Virus record (IMG/VR): IMGVR_UViG_3300045988_168943
Span: 1-6,194 of that record
Direction: 5' to 3' (one strand)
Length of the DNA stretch: 6,194 nt
From: a virus
In this document: one piece after another, positions 1 through 6,194 of the stretch
Numbering within the stretch: position 1 is the first letter of the stretch
How the letters are laid out: each line of letters starts with the position of its first letter
Notes under the pieces: generated by a model
Database searches by the model: none
Told to the model about the DNA's origin: nothing
What the model saw: only the letters and a program-made list of their open reading frames with translations
Program-made: the position numbers and the translations under genes

Positions 1-55
1 GCTAATACCCAATTTCAAGGTGCAGATTTCTTGAGTAATCATTTTGCTTCGCCCT
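1..55. repeat. Terminal direct repeat, copy 1 (identical to 6140..6194); an assembly overlap from a circular genome
   Basis: Compared by eye: gctaatacccaatttcaaggtgcagatttcttgagtaatcattttgcttcgccct occurs at both window ends. The reading frame is preserved across the junction (6140 and 1 are both first codon positions of the capsid ORF). Confidence 0.95.
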
Positions 56-2508: not shown

Positions 2509-2537
2509 TATTTTTATTTTTTTTCCGTTATCATTTT

Positions 2538-2642
2538 ATGAGACACGGTTTATTATATTATTTAGTTTGTGCGATATTGATTATCTTTATCGTTATGTTT
2601 GTTTTATGTCTTTTAAGCTCATTTATTGCGGTTTACTTCTAG
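2538..2642 (+). CDS. Candidate 34-aa single-pass membrane peptide (MRHGLLYYLVCAILIIFIVMFVLCLLSSFIAVYF)
   Basis: Hand-translated; too short for the ORF track. It starts 29 nt after the VP2 stop and ends 6 nt before the intrinsic terminator, so it would be the last cistron of the transcript. Caveat: the T-rich strand generates hydrophobic ORFs by chance. Confidence 0.35.
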   Translation: MRHGLLYYLVCAILIIFIVMFVLCLLSSFIAVYF

Positions 2643-2648
2643 TTAATT

Positions 2649-2678
2649 AGGCAGTCATTTATATGGCTGCCTTTTTTT
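2649..2678 (+). terminator. Rho-independent terminator ending the + strand gene block
   Basis: AGGCAGTCA (2649-2657) pairs with TGGCTGCCT (2664-2672): a 9-bp stem with one G-U wobble and loop TTTATA. The stem runs straight into a T7 tract (2672-2678). Confidence 0.8.
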
Positions 2679-2682
2679 GCTT

Positions 2683-2977
2683 CGTGTCGGAGATGCCGTA
2701 GGCAGACACGCTTATTATCTCAAAGTCTTGCGCTAGCCCCTCCTATACCTATGAAAAACACTAGCCTTTGCTTCTTTGGGCAATGCCAAAGAAGTAGGGG
2801 TTGAGGGGGTGAAACCCCCTAACATTCGCCGTCGGCGTCCGACCTCCGAGGGGTTGTAGGGGGCGCGGAGTGGCGCCCCCTAATCGCTAGTTATCAACTT
2901 TCGGTTTTCACGAAGTGCGATTGCCCCCGCCAATCGCCAACCTGCCCTTGTCCTTTAAAGGAAAACCGACACACACG
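2683..2977. other. GC-rich, hairpin-dense non-coding island; candidate complementary-strand origin or other structured DNA/RNA element
   Basis: The track shows no ORF of 60 aa or more on either strand. My hand count over 2781-2940 gives about 59% G+C, against roughly 40% elsewhere. Stems read from the sequence: 2683-2688/2705-2710 with inner 2694-2697/2701-2704; 2771-2779/2786-2794 (9 bp perfect); 2805-2809/2815-2819; 2831-2835/2839-2843; 2857-2866/2873-2882 (10 bp, GC-rich); 2917-2923/2931-2937 (7 bp), enclosed by the long-range pair 2901-2909/2961-2969 (9 bp perfect). Confidence 0.6.
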
Positions 2978-3037
2978 TAAATAATGCTATCTCCACATAG
3001 CATTTCACGTGAAACATTTTAAAAGTAAACTAATATT

Positions 3038-3065
3038 TGTTAACATAACGTCCCTTATGTTAGAA
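3038..3065. promoter_or_regulatory. dif-like 28-bp site (11-nt arm, 6-nt spacer, 11-nt arm); candidate XerC/XerD-dependent attP
   Basis: The site reads TGTTAACATAA CGTCCC TTATGTTAGAA. The inner 8 nt of the arms form a perfect inverted repeat. Compared with E. coli dif (GGTGCGCATAA TGTATA TTATGTTAAAT), the right arm matches 9/11 and the left arm 7/11, including the spacer-proximal CATAA. Confidence 0.55.
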
Positions 3066-3082
3066 GTATGGTAGTACTTCAT

Positions 3083-3090
3083 TATCTTTG
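3083..3090 (+). promoter_or_regulatory. Candidate Bacteroidota -7 promoter element (TAnnTTTG)
   Basis: TATCTTTG matches the Bacteroides -7 consensus TAnnTTTG and lies 66 nt upstream of the first gene after the non-coding region (ATG 3156). I found no convincing -33 TTTG at the expected spacing. A sigma70-like TATAAT at 3121-3126 is an alternative. Confidence 0.3.
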
Positions 3091-3155
3091 CACTCGTTTT
3101 CAGTTACTTATTGTTTCTGATATAATTTATTGTTTAATTTTAATGTAAAAAAGAT

Positions 3156-3557
3156 ATGAGATTGTTATTGGTCAGAGATTCGTTTGATTCTTGTTCTACA
3201 TTGGGTGAGTTATTTATCGATGATGTCCCGTTCTGTAATACTCTAGAGCCTGCTATAGGTAAAAAGGTTAAATACGGCAAAGGTTGTTGTATTGCTCCTG
3301 GCACTTATTCTATTGATTTTCATTATTCTCCAAAGTTTGGAAAATACATGCTTACTTTGTGTGGTGTCTCTGGTCGTTCTGGAATTCTCATTCATTCTGG
3401 TAATACCCATAAAGATACTAGCGGTTGCATTCTTGTTGGTAAGCGTGGTGGTGTTCTTCCTTTGGCTTACTCTACTAGCACTTTAGGCTCACTGTTTGAC
3501 CGTTGCTTGTCTGTTCTAGGTAAAGAGTCAATTACTATTTCGATTACAAATAAATAA
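3156..3557 (+). CDS. DUF5675-like protein (133 aa) with a His...Ser-Gly-Cys motif; putative peptidoglycan-acting enzyme (lysis or entry)
   Basis: Clean ORF in an A-rich start context. STLGELFIDDVPFCNTLEP ... IAPGTYSIDFHYSPKFG ... GILIHSGNTHKDTSGCILVG matches my memory of the DUF5675 family found in Bacteroidota and their phages. The H-x-G-N ... S-G-C-I motif resembles the YkuD (L,D-transpeptidase fold) His/Cys active site, although the His-Cys spacing here is shorter. There is no signal peptide. Confidence 0.8.
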   Translation: MRLLLVRDSFDSCSTLGELFIDDVPFCNTLEPAIGKKVKYGKGCCIAPGTYSIDFHYSPKFGKYMLTLCGVSGRSGILIHSGNTHKDTSGCILVGKRGGVLPLAYSTSTLGSLFDRCLSVLGKESITISITNK

Positions 3558-3560
3558 GTT

Positions 3561-3656
3561 ATGTTTAAAAAAGAAGAAGTTTTTAAAGTTATTATTAAGG
3601 CAGTTCTTTACGCTATTACTGCGTTGGCTGCTCAACTGGGTTATACATCGTTATAA
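3561..3656 (+). CDS. Candidate 31-aa membrane or amphipathic peptide (MFKKEEVFKVIIKAVLYAITALAAQLGYTSL)
   Basis: Hand-translated; too short for the track. ATG lies 3 nt after the upstream stop, and its own stop is 11 nt before the VP4 ATG, so it fills the gap exactly. It has a charged N-terminus followed by a roughly 20-residue hydrophobic segment. Confidence 0.45.
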   Translation: MFKKEEVFKVIIKAVLYAITALAAQLGYTSL

Positions 3657-3667
3657 ATTTTGGGAAT

Positions 3668-5392
3668 ATGAGAGATAGTATTAAGGATTATGTTAAGCGT
3701 TTTAGGCAGAACGTTACACCTGCTATGCGTTGCTACCACCCATTGCGCATTTATAATGCTGCAAGAGGTGTATTTGAGTGGCATAATTGTGGTAAGTGTC
3801 CTTATTGTCTTAAGATGCGTTCTGACGAATTGACGCAAAGATGCTACAAGGAGTCTGAACAACATCCCTATGCTATCTTTTTTACTCTCACTTATGATAA
3901 TGAGCATATTCCCTATTTAGAGCGTGTTGGTAAATGGTGGATACTTCGTAACCGCAGAGAAGTAGTTGATGGTGAAAGTACTGTTATTATTCACGATTCT
4001 GAGGTACAAGGTGTACACCCTATAGAGTCTAATGAATGCCCCATTGATATCGATTGTTTCGGTGTCCTTTGGAAGCAGGACATTATTAATTTCAAGAAAC
4101 GTCTGTTTATAAATCTCAAAAGATATGTTCAGCGCAATAAAAAATATTATACAAGTTTATTCGTTAATGGTAAGCTTAAAGAAGAGCCGCTTTTCCGAAT
4201 CTTCATTAATGGCGAATATGGACCAACTACCCTGCGTCCACATTACCACGGCATTTTGTGGTGTGATGAAAAGTGTTTGGCAAACGATTTTCTTGATTCC
4301 TACAAGAATAGCGCAAAATCTGCCGATAGAGACTATTGGCACGGTCTTATATACGAAAGTTGGCAGATGTGTAGTCCGGATAGATGCGACTCACAACACG
4401 TCACAAAGGCTGCTCCCTCGTACGTTGCAAGCTATGTATGTAGCACATATAGTTTGCCTGATGTTCTTCAGGCTAAACCCTTCCGTCCAAAGGTCTTGGC
4501 AAGTAAAAACCCTATTATTGGTTCTTACAAAGTTAGCCCAGATGTGCTTACGGATGCACTCTTTAATGGAACTATCCTTTATCCTCAATGGAATGATGAC
4601 GAAAAGTCCTTTACCGAGTACCCTTTACCCTACACGTATCTCCTTCGATACTTCCCTAAGTGCCAAGCATATGGCGTTTCGGATATTAATGATAAATTAT
4701 CAATATTTGCGAAGTATGAAGCAGGAAGGTATGTAAAAAGACCAATTGTTAGACGTGGTTTTTTCTACCAAAAGAAACAAGACTTGGTTTGTTATGATTT
4801 CAATCAGGATTATGATGATACCCCTTACAACGATTATTATCGCTATCAAAATAGCCGATTTCATCGTATGTTGAAGTATTGGTGTTCTCGCTCCTTCGAT
4901 GTTCCTGAACGTGATAATTTAGGTATTCTTACAGGTCGTTTTGTGTCTCGTAGGTTGTCTCCTCGTCAATATATTGAGTGTCTTGATAGATTATATAGTA
5001 ATCTTGAGTTATACAAGTTGTCTAAGTTTTATGCCGAGCAGGAAGATTTGTTAGATGGCTCTCGTAATGCGTATAATGAGTATCTATTTACTCAACGCTA
5101 TCAGGCTAAAATTTATCTTCTCACTTATTACCCTGAGTTTGTTTTCTCTCTTCCTAGAGTGCTTACTCCTGCCGTTGATAGGTTTCAACTTAACAGACAG
5201 TTAAATAATTTTGGTCTTGTTATCTCAGATATTTACATTGGTCTTGAGTTGTCTCCTGCTGTTTTGGATTTCTTATATAATAACACTATTAATATGAATT
5301 TCCGTGTTAATACTACCCAGAAGTGTATTGACCGTAACAAGTCTAAAAAGTATAAAGAGTTTTATGCCCGACAAAAGGGTATTATTTATTAA
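3668..5392 (+). CDS. VP4: Rolling-circle replication initiation protein (VP4, phiX174 gpA homologue; HUH endonuclease), 574 aa
   Basis: Motif 1 is FFTLTYD. The HUH motif is RPHYHGILW (HYH at 4241-4249). The two-tyrosine motif 3 is SYVASYV (Y252 at 4421-4423 and Y256), comparable to phiX174 gpA YVAKYV. An N-terminal cysteine cluster, CGKCPYC, is typical of microvirus Rep proteins. The true start could instead be ATG 3725 (MRCYHPLRIYN...), which resembles the usual VP4 N-terminus. Confidence 0.93.
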   Translation: MRDSIKDYVKRFRQNVTPAMRCYHPLRIYNAARGVFEWHNCGKCPYCLKMRSDELTQRCYKESEQHPYAIFFTLTYDNEHIPYLERVGKWWILRNRREVVDGESTVIIHDSEVQGVHPIESNECPIDIDCFGVLWKQDIINFKKRLFINLKRYVQRNKKYYTSLFVNGKLKEEPLFRIFINGEYGPTTLRPHYHGILWCDEKCLANDFLDSYKNSAKSADRDYWHGLIYESWQMCSPDRCDSQHVTKAAPSYVASYVCSTYSLPDVLQAKPFRPKVLASKNPIIGSYKVSPDVLTDALFNGTILYPQWNDDEKSFTEYPLPYTYLLRYFPKCQAYGVSDINDKLSIFAKYEAGRYVKRPIVRRGFFYQKKQDLVCYDFNQDYDDTPYNDYYRYQNSRFHRMLKYWCSRSFDVPERDNLGILTGRFVSRRLSPRQYIECLDRLYSNLELYKLSKFYAEQEDLLDGSRNAYNEYLFTQRYQAKIYLLTYYPEFVFSLPRVLTPAVDRFQLNRQLNNFGLVISDIYIGLELSPAVLDFLYNNTINMNFRVNTTQKCIDRNKSKKYKEFYARQKGIIY

Positions 5393-5407: not shown

Positions 5408-6194
5408 ATGGTTAAGTCAGTTTTACAAAAACCGCTTTCGATTTCAAACGTATCTCGTAATGCGTTTGATGTAGGCTATAGTAACAAGTTTACTAGCAGT
5501 CTTGGTATGTTGTTGCCGTGTTTCGTTCGTGAGTGTAACCCTGATGAGCACTACCGCATTAATGCCCGTATGTTCACTCGTACAATGCCTATGAACTCGG
5601 CTGCGTTCATTCAGTGTACACAACATATTGAGTTCTTTTTTGTGCCTTATCGTCTCTTGTGGCGAGACTTCCCTCAGTTTGTGACGGGTACCAAGTTCCC
5701 TACTTCTCTGTATGATTCTAAGGTTTCTTCTGATTCTCCAAAGTTCGATTTGGCTAAGATTTATAACGCTTTCAAAGATAAGTTATCTGCTTCTAACCCT
5801 ACCCCTGCTGGTGGTCTTGGTACAGATTTGCTTGGTTATCCTAAGATACAGAATGCAATGCGTCTGCTTGATTTGCTCGGTTATGGTTGTTATTATACTC
5901 CAGAATCTATGGATTTCGCTCCTGCAGCTATGAATCCTTTTCGCTTGCTTGCTTATCAGAAGATTTGCGCCGATTTCTACCGTGTTGCGAATTGGGAAGA
6001 CAACCGTGTTAAGTCTTGGAATATTGATGGTCTTAATATAGACCTTACTTCTTCGTGGAATGCTGTAACGTTGCAGAATTTCTTGGATAATTATCTCGCA
6101 CTCAATTATCGTCCTTGGAAAAAAGATTTGTTTACCATTGCTAATACCCAATTTCAAGGTGCAGATTTCTTGAGTAATCATTTTGCTTCGCCCT
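5408..6194 (+). CDS. VP1: Major capsid protein VP1 (gpF homologue), N-terminal part; runs off the window end and continues at 1..1005
   Basis: I translated it by hand from ATG 5408 and found no stop through 6194. The protein begins MVKSVLQKPLSISNVSRNAFDVGYSNKFTSSLGMLLPCFVRECNPDEHYRINARMFTRTMPMNSAAFIQCTQHIEFFFVPYRLLW and later contains LNYRPWKKDLFT. These are characteristic microvirus capsid blocks (FTRT..P...AAF....FFFVPYRLLW, as in Alpavirinae-like VP1). The ORF track missed it because it has no stop inside the window. Confidence 0.93.
   Translation, partial: MVKSVLQKPLSISNVSRNAFDVGYSNKFTSSLGMLLPCFVRECNPDEHYRINARMFTRTMPMNSAAFIQCTQHIEFFFVPYRLLWRDFPQFVTGTKFPTSLYDSKVSSDSPKFDLAKIYNAFKDKLSASNPTPAGGLGTDLLGYPKIQNAMRLLDLLGYGCYYTPESMDFAPAAMNPFRLLAYQKICADFYRVANWEDNRVKSWNIDGLNIDLTSSWNAVTLQNFLDNYLALNYRPWKKDLFTIANTQFQGADFLSNHFASP
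6140..6194. repeat. Terminal direct repeat, copy 2 (identical to 1..55)
   Basis: Exact 55-nt identity with the window start, giving a circular unit length of 6139 nt. Confidence 0.95.

What the first reader, a model, noticed from the sequence alone, without database searches (positions are those of the whole stretch)
3038..3065. dif-like XerC/XerD site in a microvirus that encodes no integrase
TGTTAACATAA-CGTCCC-TTATGTTAGAA has the exact dif architecture: two 11-nt arms around a 6-nt spacer, with a perfect inverted repeat over the inner 8 nt. Against E. coli dif (GGTGCGCATAA-TGTATA-TTATGTTAAAT) the XerD-side arm matches 9/11 and the XerC-side arm 7/11. The core pattern CATAA-N6-TTATGTTA fixes 13 bases, so a chance hit in about 12 kb of two-strand sequence is unlikely. 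The site lies in the only large non-coding region, and no recombinase ORF exists in the genome. It is established that filamentous ssDNA phages such as CTXphi, and other IMEX elements, integrate at dif using host XerCD. It is also established that integrase-less microvirus proviruses exist in Bacteroidetes genomes. The inference is that this site is the attP of a temperate, Xer-hijacking microvirus.
Basis: partly seen in the sequence, partly recalled or inferred. Interest (0 to 1): 0.75.

Follow-up and report, generated by a model that had tools for sequence, protein, structure and literature searches.

The report
Microvirus attachment site for Segatella chromosome
The 28-base palindrome is the attachment site through which this gut microvirus, which encodes no integrase, inserts into one dif-like site in Segatella (Prevotella) copri chromosomes; this is a well-documented new example of a strategy first proposed for Bacteroidetes microviruses in 2011.

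Summary
TGTTAACATAA-CGTCCC-TTATGTTAGAA lies at 3038-3065, in the only large non-coding region of a circular 6,139-nt microvirus that has no recombinase gene.

The attP interpretation is supported by sequence evidence. Relatives (VP1 87-98% identical, genomes 83-93% identical in DNA) occur as proviruses inside Segatella/Prevotella contigs of up to 98 kb. They are bounded by the two hybrid sites: attL ATTTATCATAA-CGTCCC-TTATGT… and attR TGTTAACATAA-CGTCCC-TTAAAAGTAAA. The predicted empty site, ATTTATCATAA-CGTCCC-TTAAAAGTAAA, occurs once in each of eight Segatella/Prevotella genomes and in 63 metagenome contigs. Removing a provirus in silico restores it exactly. The crossover lies within a shared 14-bp core, CATAACGTCCCTTA.

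The same attP is present in two other microvirus lineages whose VP1 is only 24-35% identical. One arm of the host site matches the canonical XerD arm at 10 of 11 positions.

Catalysis by Xer, and the identity of the host site as the true chromosomal dif, remain inferred. The concept itself is known (Krupovic & Forterre 2011; Kirchberger & Ochman 2020), so this is a new member of a known kind.

The parts
3038..3065 (.). attP, a 28-bp dif-like recombination site: TGTTAACATAA-CGTCCC-TTATGTTAGAA.
   Evidence: Searches confirm the sequence. Hybrid attL and attR sites in proviruses and the empty attB in hosts are shown.
3038..3048 (.). Left arm, TGTTAACATAA. It is invariant in every attP and attR copy seen. 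Its reverse complement, TTATGTTAACA, matches the canonical XerD arm at 9/11. It corresponds in position to the host arm ATTTATCATAA, whose reverse complement matches the XerD arm at 10/11.
3049..3054 (.). 6-bp central (overlap) region, CGTCCC. It is identical in attP and attB. The variant TGTCCC occurs in some host sites (L015 and 3 metagenome attB copies) and in the attL of L007/L028.
3055..3065 (.). Right arm, TTATGTTAGAA. The inner TTATGT is conserved. The outer 5 nt vary among relatives (TTGGA, ATGAA, GCTAA, TACAA, TATAA and others).
3044..3057 (.). 14-bp core, CATAACGTCCCTTA, shared by attP, attB, attL and attR. The crossover must lie inside it.
3002..3029 (.). Conserved upstream module with a second dif-like layout: ATTTCACGTGA-AACATT-TTAAAAGTAAA. 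Its right arm is identical (11/11) to the right arm of the host attB. It contains the invariant palindrome TTTCACGTGAAA. Its role is unknown; it may be an accessory site.
   Evidence: shuffle fraction 0.00067 for the 11-mer in the non-coding region; same position in three lineages.
2509..3155 (.). The single large non-coding region. It holds attP and the conserved structured block. Integration at attP leaves all genes intact.

Best explanation
The 28-mer is the attP of a temperate microvirus that infects bacteria of the Segatella (Prevotella) copri complex and has no integrase. The double-stranded replicative form recombines with a single 28-bp chromosomal site, attB = ATTTATCATAA-CGTCCC-TTAAAAGTAAA. 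In dif orientation this site reads TTTACTTTTAA-GGGACG-TTATGATAAAT. The reaction is conservative and reciprocal, and it occurs within the shared core CATAA-CGTCCC-TTA. It yields attL (host left arm plus phage right arm) and attR (phage left arm plus host right arm), with no gain or loss of bases, so it is reversible in principle. The following steps are shown by sequence: the site itself, the junctions, the empty target, the host, the fixed orientation, and the coexistence of empty, occupied and circular forms. The following steps are inferred: the catalyst is a host Xer-type tyrosine recombinase (XerC/XerD homologues), and attB is the host's chromosome-dimer-resolution site.
For: Proviruses are collinear with the window permuted at attP. 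They are 83-87% identical in DNA and carry host flanks: L005, L064, L106, L040, L021 and L038, and L108 in an 80.7-kb contig. L112 and L113 (VP1 96-98% identical) show the attL junction; these contigs end inside the phage, so attR was not seen. The predicted attB is found empty once in each of 8 Segatella/Prevotella genomes and in 63 metagenome contigs, alongside 10 attR, 4 attL and 7 attP copies. In-silico excision of the L106 provirus aligns in a single stretch across the junction with the empty locus L014 at 98.5% identity, and it regenerates both attB and attP. In one sample, an empty-site contig (coverage 64) and a provirus contig (coverage 13) share identical host flanks. L008 links attL and an attP junction in one contig. 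The same attP occurs in two other microvirus lineages with 24-35% VP1 identity, and these lineages do not share the Rep C-terminal half. The host arm TTATGATAAAT matches the canonical XerD arm at 10/11. Outside this att site, only 18 matches of that quality occur in 1.4 Mb of host DNA scanned. No recombinase gene is present in the phage or directly beside the site in the host. An unrelated element encoding an SSB and a replication initiator is joined to the same host arm and core (L091). GC skew changes at the site from about +0.01 on the left to -0.065 on the right. GC3 skew of + strand genes changes from about -0.03 to about -0.18. Published precedent exists in PMC3091885 and PMC7062461.
Against: No experiment or genetic evidence links XerC/XerD to this site. 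The host's other arm (TTTACTTTTAA) and the GC-rich spacer (GGGACG) are unlike canonical dif. The Bacteroidia dif sites predicted by Kono et al. do not resemble this site, although most of those predictions lie far from the skew shift-point and are probably unreliable. In the one complete genome, NZ_CP152346.1, the site lies at about 1.198 Mb of 4.24 Mb, which is 28% of the record. I could not locate oriC or compute genome-wide skew, so a position at the terminus is unproven. The local skew evidence rests on about a dozen genes from homologous loci. Bacteroidales encode many other tyrosine recombinases.
Confidence: 0.75

Rival explanations
1. The site is a genuine attP, but the recombinase is a host-encoded (or co-resident mobile-element-encoded) tyrosine recombinase other than the chromosome-dimer-resolution XerC/XerD pair. 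On this view attB is a dedicated integration hot spot rather than dif.
For: One arm and the spacer of attB are non-canonical. The site's position at 28% of the complete-genome record is not evidently at the terminus. Bacteroidales carry many tyrosine recombinases (general knowledge). A VapE/BT4734-like mobile-element gene lies about 6 kb to the right of the site. Single host genes adjacent to the site are variably present.
Against: Three of the four half-sites match the canonical XerD arm at 9-10 of 11 positions, and the layout is exactly 11-6-11. No recombinase gene is linked to the site. The site is unique in each genome. At least two unrelated element types use it. The local skew shift at the site also argues against this view.
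Confidence: 0.2
2. Integration occurs without a site-specific recombinase. It is mediated either by the phage HUH Rep protein or by homologous or microhomology recombination across the 14-bp identity.
For: The phage encodes a rolling-circle Rep with an uncharacterised C-terminal half of 285 aa. A 14-bp identity between attP and attB exists.
Against: The junctions are precisely reciprocal and conservative, and they are identical in many independent proviruses and in several lineages. Fourteen base pairs is too short for efficient RecA-dependent recombination (general knowledge). HUH-mediated insertion does not need or produce two-armed hybrid sites. Lineages that share the attP do not share the Rep C-terminal half. 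An unrelated element uses the same site.
Confidence: 0.04
3. The palindrome is primarily a hairpin with another function, such as a terminator, operator or origin, and its resemblance to dif is coincidental.
For: The site can form an 8-bp stem with a 6-nt loop. It lies in a regulatory intergenic region upstream of the DUF5675-Rep genes.
Against: The provirus/host junctions fall exactly inside it. Its outer right arm varies freely, while the left arm, the spacer and TTATGT are invariant. That pattern is not what a simple hairpin would show.
Confidence: 0.01

Closest known systems
BMV1-7 proviruses, the founding 'Alpavirinae' of Bacteroides and Prevotella (Krupovic & Forterre 2011, PMC3091885)
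   Same: They are integrase-less microviruses integrated in Bacteroidales chromosomes. Their att sites are dif-like and flank the provirus as imperfect direct repeats (13 bp in BMV1, 14 bp here). The gene order is VP4-VP1-VP2 and the genome is about 6.1-6.3 kb. An additional dif-like sequence lies near one provirus end in BMV4-6, and this phage has a second dif-like module. In BMV1 the site is intergenic next to a glycoside hydrolase gene, and here it is next to an alpha-galactosidase gene.
   Different: The host clade (S. copri complex) and the site sequence are different. The closest GenBank phage VP1 is only about 37% identical, and placement within Alpavirinae was not tested. Here the empty site, both junctions, the free circular form and mixed populations within one sample are all documented, across dozens of contigs. 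In the 2011 paper an empty site was available only for BMV1.
Enterogokushovirus EC6098 and related Escherichia gokushovirus prophages (Kirchberger & Ochman 2020, PMC7062461)
   Same: The microvirus has a 28-bp dif-motif in a non-coding region and no integrase. The prophage is flanked by a bacterial-type and a phage-type dif-motif. Integration is reversible and 'passive', and integrated and non-integrated forms coexist.
   Different: For EC6098, dependence on XerC/XerD and on both arms was shown experimentally in E. coli, and the target is the canonical E. coli dif. Here the host is a Bacteroidales species whose dif is undefined, and nothing was tested experimentally. The virus subfamily is also different.
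VGJphi-type IMEX of Vibrio cholerae (filamentous phages that integrate as double-stranded DNA)
   Same: A contiguous duplex attP recombines with the host site. Both hybrid sites retain two arms, so excision is possible.
   Different: VGJphi is an inovirus. Its attP shares homology with dif1 on only one side of the central region. Here the 6-bp central region is identical in attP and attB, so both pairs of strand exchanges could be completed (inference).
CTXphi attP(+)
   Same: It is a single-stranded DNA phage without an integrase that uses host XerCD at dif.
   Different: CTXphi uses two inverted dif-like sequences that fold, in the single strand, into a forked hairpin, and its integration is irreversible. 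Here a single duplex site suffices, and the second dif-like module is in direct orientation.
Mobile-element integration used to discover the Legionella dif/Xer system (bioRxiv 10.1101/2021.09.12.459815, seen by title and abstract only)
   Same: The logic is the same: an integrated element's att site points to a non-canonical chromosomal dimer-resolution site in a clade where dif was unknown.
   Different: That study established the recombinase and the site. Here this reading is only a possibility.

Membership tests
IMEX (integrative mobile elements exploiting Xer) | The element carries a dif-like site: two ~11-bp arms around a 6-8-bp central region, resembling XerC/XerD binding arms. | tested here: met
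   The layout is 11-6-11. Both arms match the canonical XerD arm at 9/11, each in its own orientation. The site is more than chance would give.
IMEX (integrative mobile elements exploiting Xer) | The element encodes no integrase or recombinase of its own. | tested here: met
   No ORF matches a recombinase family in Pfam or PHROGs, at E-values up to 5 in Pfam for most ORFs, and Rep has no match among PDB sequences. The 340-aa ORF is a VP2 pilot protein. The Rep C-terminal 285 aa remain unassigned.
IMEX (integrative mobile elements exploiting Xer) | The integrated copies are bounded by hybrid attL and attR sites, and a matching empty chromosomal site exists. | tested here: met
IMEX (integrative mobile elements exploiting Xer) | The chromosomal target is the dimer-resolution site dif: unique, intergenic, and located at the replication terminus or GC-skew shift-point. 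| tested here: inconclusive
   The site is unique in each genome and intergenic. One arm matches the XerD consensus at 10/11. A local GC and GC3 skew shift occurs at the site. Whole-genome skew and terminus position could not be computed. The site lies at 1.198 of 4.24 Mb in NZ_CP152346.1, and the origin position in that record is unknown.
IMEX (integrative mobile elements exploiting Xer) | Integration depends on host XerC/XerD. | not testable with these tools
   This needs genetics or biochemistry in S. copri. Homologues of xerC and xerD are reported in Bacteroidetes, including species that carry BMV proviruses (PMC3091885).
Alpavirinae / Bacteroidetes-associated microviruses (microvirus 'Family 5') | The virus has the Microviridae core genes (VP1 capsid, VP4 Rep, VP2 pilot) in the order VP4-VP1-VP2. 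| tested here: met
   Searches identify the genes. The gene order is seen.
Alpavirinae / Bacteroidetes-associated microviruses (microvirus 'Family 5') | The host is in the Bacteroidales (Bacteroides or Prevotella). | tested here: met
   Provirus flanks and empty sites are in Segatella copri, S. sinensis and Prevotella sp. genomes.
Alpavirinae / Bacteroidetes-associated microviruses (microvirus 'Family 5') | VP1 is placed phylogenetically, or by protein-sharing network, with named Alpavirinae. | not tested
   The best GenBank phage hits are unclassified pig and human 'Microviridae sp.' records at 33-37% identity. No named Alpavirinae reference was compared.
CTXphi-type single-strand-folded attP | Two dif-like sequences in inverted orientation pair in the ssDNA to form the recombination substrate. 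| tested here: not met
   A single contiguous 28-bp site accounts for both junctions. The second dif-like module (3002-3029) is in direct orientation, 8 nt upstream.

The most novel reading that the evidence does not exclude
The phage junctions identify the true chromosome-dimer-resolution site of the Segatella/Prevotella copri complex: TTTACTTTTAA-GGGACG-TTATGATAAAT, with an unusually GC-rich spacer and a divergent XerC-side arm. This is a clade of Bacteroidia in which published dif predictions are inconsistent. In addition, the roughly 65-nt att module would be a portable cassette exchanged among microvirus lineages with less than 35% capsid identity. The module comprises attP plus an upstream copy of the host's XerC-side arm and the CACGTG palindrome, and the upstream host-arm mimic would serve as an accessory Xer-binding site.
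Probability: 0.35. Interest if true: 0.55.

Novelty: new member of a known kind. Interest (0 to 1): 0.4.

Why it matters
S. copri is one of the most abundant and most debated human gut bacteria, and it has few genetic tools and few characterised phages. This result assigns a host and a lifestyle to a common gut microvirus lineage: 38 of the 120 closest VP1 clusters lie on contigs longer than 7.5 kb. It also gives base-pair-exact attP, attB, attL and attR sequences, which allow lysogeny to be scored directly in metagenomes. The result supplies a 28-bp site that could be used for site-specific insertion in S. copri. It also offers a concrete candidate for the so far undefined dif site of Bacteroidia. 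It does not change the concept, which dates from 2011 and was proven experimentally for enterobacterial gokushoviruses in 2020.

Tried and rejected
- The exact 28-mer has no match in IMG/VR. The outer right arm varies, so a degenerate 24-mer was used instead.
- A close-relative VP1 search of the genome collection found nothing. The species-representative genomes that carry the site hold empty sites, not proviruses.
- I compared conservation of attB with that of its flanks. I rejected this as evidence because the loci had been selected by matching the site, so its invariance is by construction.
- Local GC skew and GC3 skew are suggestive only. The flanks are at most 10 kb and homologous to one another.
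- L089 and L099 (low coding density, probably eukaryotic) and L102 (next to tRNA genes) are pattern hits without phage or Segatella context. I treated them as the few chance matches expected.
- Distant pig microviruses (MT135370, MG945191, MG945831, MT135430) share the upstream non-coding block but have no recognisable copy of this attP at the aligned position. They may target other hosts or may not integrate.
- Rfam gave only a sub-threshold hit: Clostridiales-2, 24.6 bits against a gathering score of 58.6. No tRNA was found.
- A search for relatives of the L091 element's replication protein in IMG/VR found nothing.
- The dif predictions of Kono et al. for Bacteroidia were consulted. They disagree with one another, and several lie far from the skew shift, so they cannot serve as a reference.
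- The 22.5-kb contig that carries a 100% identical VP1 (L107) is not a provirus at attB. It has an intact attP and joins unrelated DNA inside the end of VP2, so it is probably chimeric.

Full report
**What the window is.** The 6,194-nt window has a 55-nt terminal direct repeat, so it is a circular genome of 6,139 nt. Its genes are as follows:
- VP1 capsid: from about 5408, across the window ends, to 1005 (578 aa).
- An unassigned ORF at 1007-1432.
- VP2 pilot protein: 1486-2508, 28% identical to an annotated pilot protein (E = 4e-32).
- A DUF5675 protein: 3156-3557.
- The rolling-circle Rep (VP4): 3668-5392.

No ORF resembles an integrase, resolvase or transposase, even at lenient thresholds, and the Rep protein has no match among PDB sequences. 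The only long non-coding stretch runs from the end of VP2 to 3155.

**The observation.** TGTTAACATAA-CGTCCC-TTATGTTAGAA lies at 3038-3065. The inner 8 nt of the arms are perfectly complementary. The stated identities to E. coli dif (7/11 and 9/11) are correct. The core pattern is not expected by chance: the expectation is 0.03, and no shuffle out of 200 reached the observed count.

**Relatives and junctions.** Five IMG/VR contigs encode VP1 proteins 73-91% identical to the window's.
- L009 carries the same site with a different outer right arm.
- L005 (6,465 nt) has non-phage ends and two half-matching sites: ATTTATCATAA-CGTCCC-TTATGTTGGAA at its left end and TGTTAACATAA-CGTCCC-TTAAAAGTAAA at its right end.
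- L007 has the same left junction.
- L008 has a different left flank with the same junction, followed by a full genome, an intact attP, and then the start of the phage again.

This pattern is what attL and attR of an integrated provirus should look like. It predicts an empty host site, ATTTATCATAA-CGTCCC-TTAAAAGTAAA, that shares the core CATAACGTCCCTTA with attP.

**The host site.** I scanned with a degenerate 24-mer that covers all four site types.
- In the species-representative genome collection it hit eight genomes. All belong to Segatella copri, S. sinensis or Prevotella sp., each has one match, and every match is the predicted empty site. Their flanks are the same as the flanks of L005 and L008.
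- In the metagenome collection it hit 86 stretches: 63 empty attB, 10 attR, 4 attL, 7 attP and 4 others.
- Complete proviruses lie inside host contigs (L106, L064, L040, and UEOZ01000265 through L041 and L070). They are 83-87% identical in DNA to the window and collinear with the window permuted at attP.
- Removing the L106 provirus in silico gives a sequence that aligns across the junction with the empty locus L014 in one stretch at 98.5% identity. The same operation reconstitutes both attB and attP.

A protein search with VP1 found 2,980 relatives. Thirty-eight of the 120 closest clusters lie on contigs longer than 7.5 kb, the longest being 98 kb. L108 (80.7-kb contig) has both junctions at the same locus. 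L112 and L113 (VP1 96-98% identical) show the attL junction there before the contig ends inside the phage. In all three the left neighbour is the same 314/332-aa gene, and in L108 the right neighbours are an alpha-galactosidase gene and RND efflux genes. In one sample, an empty-site contig (coverage 64) and a provirus contig (coverage 13) share identical host flanks, so lysogens and non-lysogens coexist there. The attP function and the temperate lifestyle are therefore shown as far as sequence data can show them.

**Selection on the site.** The identical left arm, spacer and TTATGT are present in two further microvirus lineages (the L018/L076/L039/L057 group and the L025/L048/L059 group). Where VP1 lies on the contig (L018, L025, L048, L059) it is only 24-35% identical to the window's, and their Rep proteins align only over the N-terminal domain. 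The outer five bases of the right arm vary freely. The variant spacer TGTCCC is seen both in some host sites and in some attL copies.

**How it most likely works.** The junctions are reciprocal and conservative, and they fall within a 14-bp identity centred on a 6-bp spacer flanked by 11-bp arms. This is the signature of a tyrosine recombinase.

The phage has no such enzyme, and none is encoded next to the host site. Lineages that share the att site do not share the unassigned Rep C-terminal half. A different element, encoding an SSB and a replication initiator, is joined to the same host arm and core in L091. A host enzyme is therefore the economical explanation.

The host's left arm, read as the reverse complement, is TTATGATAAAT. 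It matches the XerD arm shared by E. coli and non-Bacteroidia Bacteroidetes dif sites at 10/11. Outside this att site, only 18 matches of that quality occur in 1.4 Mb of host DNA scanned. In dif orientation:
- attB is TTTACTTTTAA-GGGACG-TTATGATAAAT.
- attP is TTCTAACATAA-GGGACG-TTATGTTAACA.

Because the spacers are identical, both pairs of strand exchanges could be completed on the double-stranded replicative form, as in VGJphi-type elements. A CTXphi-type folded single strand is not needed. That last point is inference.

**Is attB the real dif?** This is unresolved.
- In favour: the site is unique in each genome and intergenic, it has a XerD-type arm, and at least two kinds of element use it. 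Top-strand GC skew changes from about +0.01 to -0.065 at the site, and GC3 skew of + strand genes changes from about -0.03 to about -0.18.
- Against or unknown: the other arm and the spacer are atypical, and the skew evidence comes from about a dozen genes. In the one complete genome the site lies at 28% of the record, with the origin position unknown.

The published dif predictions for Bacteroidia disagree with one another, and several lie far from the skew shift, so they give no reference. My attempt to show that the site is more conserved than its flanks is invalid, because the loci were retrieved by matching the site.

**Comparison with what is known.** Krupovic and Forterre (PMC3091885) described integrase-less microvirus proviruses in Bacteroides and Prevotella with dif-like att sites. 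BMV1 has a 13-bp direct repeat and lies next to a glycoside hydrolase gene. They proposed XerC/XerD-dependent integration and noted extra dif-like sequences near one provirus end. Kirchberger and Ochman (PMC7062461) proved dependence on XerC/XerD and on both arms for Escherichia gokushoviruses, and showed continuous, reversible integration. PMC9239249 states that Alpavirinae mostly infect Bacteroides and Prevotella.

I found no paper describing this lineage or this S. copri site. The closest GenBank phage VP1 is only about 37% identical. The finding is therefore a new, unusually well-documented member of a known kind, not a new mechanism.

**Other features nearby.** Eight nucleotides upstream of attP lies a conserved module at 3002-3029, ATTTCACGTGA-AACATT-TTAAAAGTAAA.
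- Its right arm equals the host attB right arm at 11/11 in the window and at 7-10/11 in relatives and other lineages.
- The chance of that 11-mer occurring in the 505-nt non-coding region is about 7e-4.
- Its function is unknown. It might be an accessory Xer-binding site, or the CACGTG palindrome might be an operator.

Further upstream, at 2751-2794, an invariant ATGAAAAACACTAGCC precedes a hairpin with an invariant GCAATG loop. The stem occurs in eight different but always perfectly complementary versions across very divergent microviruses. This is a structured element, possibly a complementary-strand origin.

**Verdict.** Novelty: new member of a known kind. Interest is moderate (0.4).

Noticed in passing
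window 2751-2794 (and the GC-rich hairpins up to about 2935): A non-coding element is conserved among microviruses whose VP1 is only 25-37% identical. An invariant ATGAAAAACACTAGCC precedes a hairpin, CTTCTTTGG-GCAATG-CCAAAGAAG. Eight stem variants were found, including compensated base changes and compensated indels. All are perfectly complementary and all have the invariant GCAATG loop. It may be a complementary-strand origin or another structured signal. No Rfam family matches.
   Followed up: partly
window 3002-3029: A second dif-like module, ATTTCACGTGA-AACATT-TTAAAAGTAAA, lies 8 nt upstream of attP in direct orientation. Its right arm is identical to the host attB right arm. It contains the invariant 12-bp palindrome TTTCACGTGAAA. 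Its position is conserved in three divergent lineages.
   Followed up: partly
L091 1-4678 (metagenome contig ERZ1026846 NODE_6090): The host left flank and ATTTATCATAA-CGTCCC are joined to a different right arm (TTATAAGCTAC) and to a non-microvirus element that encodes an SSB and a replication initiator (phrog_20614). A second kind of element therefore appears to use the same attB. The contig is partial, and no relatives were found in IMG/VR.
   Followed up: partly
L008 1-6260 (IMGVR_UViG_3300045988_153126): The contig runs host flank, attL, full genome, intact attP, then the phage start again. This is either a tandem prophage or an assembly path through coexisting integrated and circular forms.
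   Followed up: no
L107 1-14349 (ERZ1744964 NODE_1844, 22.5 kb): The contig carries the window's phage at 99.9-100% identity with an intact attP. At window position 2503 (the end of VP2) it joins unrelated DNA encoding DUF4062, an Mrr-like protein, a methyltransferase and a UvrD helicase, and it starts inside the hairpin block (window 2796). It is probably a chimeric assembly.
   Followed up: partly
host loci L034, L066, L106, L014 (flanks of attB): Single host genes directly beside attB are variably present. A Na+/alanine symporter gene on the left defines the two left-flank types. The alpha-galactosidase gene on the right is absent in L106 and L014. The site therefore lies at a small hot spot of gene gain and loss.
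   Followed up: partly
window 3156-3557: The first gene downstream of attP encodes a DUF5675 protein (E = 3.5e-26) with the motif HSGNTHKDTSGCILVG. It is conserved in all relatives. Its function is unknown, and it has no significant match among solved-structure sequences.
   Followed up: partly
window about 3561-3656: A 31-aa ORF between the DUF5675 gene and Rep is called in every related contig (L107-L113). It may be a real small gene.
   Followed up: no
window 4535-5392: Only the first ~290 of Rep's 574 aa match replication-initiator profiles. The last 285 aa, searched on their own, match no Pfam family, and full-length Rep has no match among PDB sequences. This C-terminal part also fails to align with the other lineages that carry the same attP.
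   Followed up: partly
window 1-55 and 6140-6194: An exact 55-nt terminal direct repeat is an assembly overlap of a circular genome. It causes an apparent frameshift in VP1 if the window is read linearly across its ends.
   Followed up: yes
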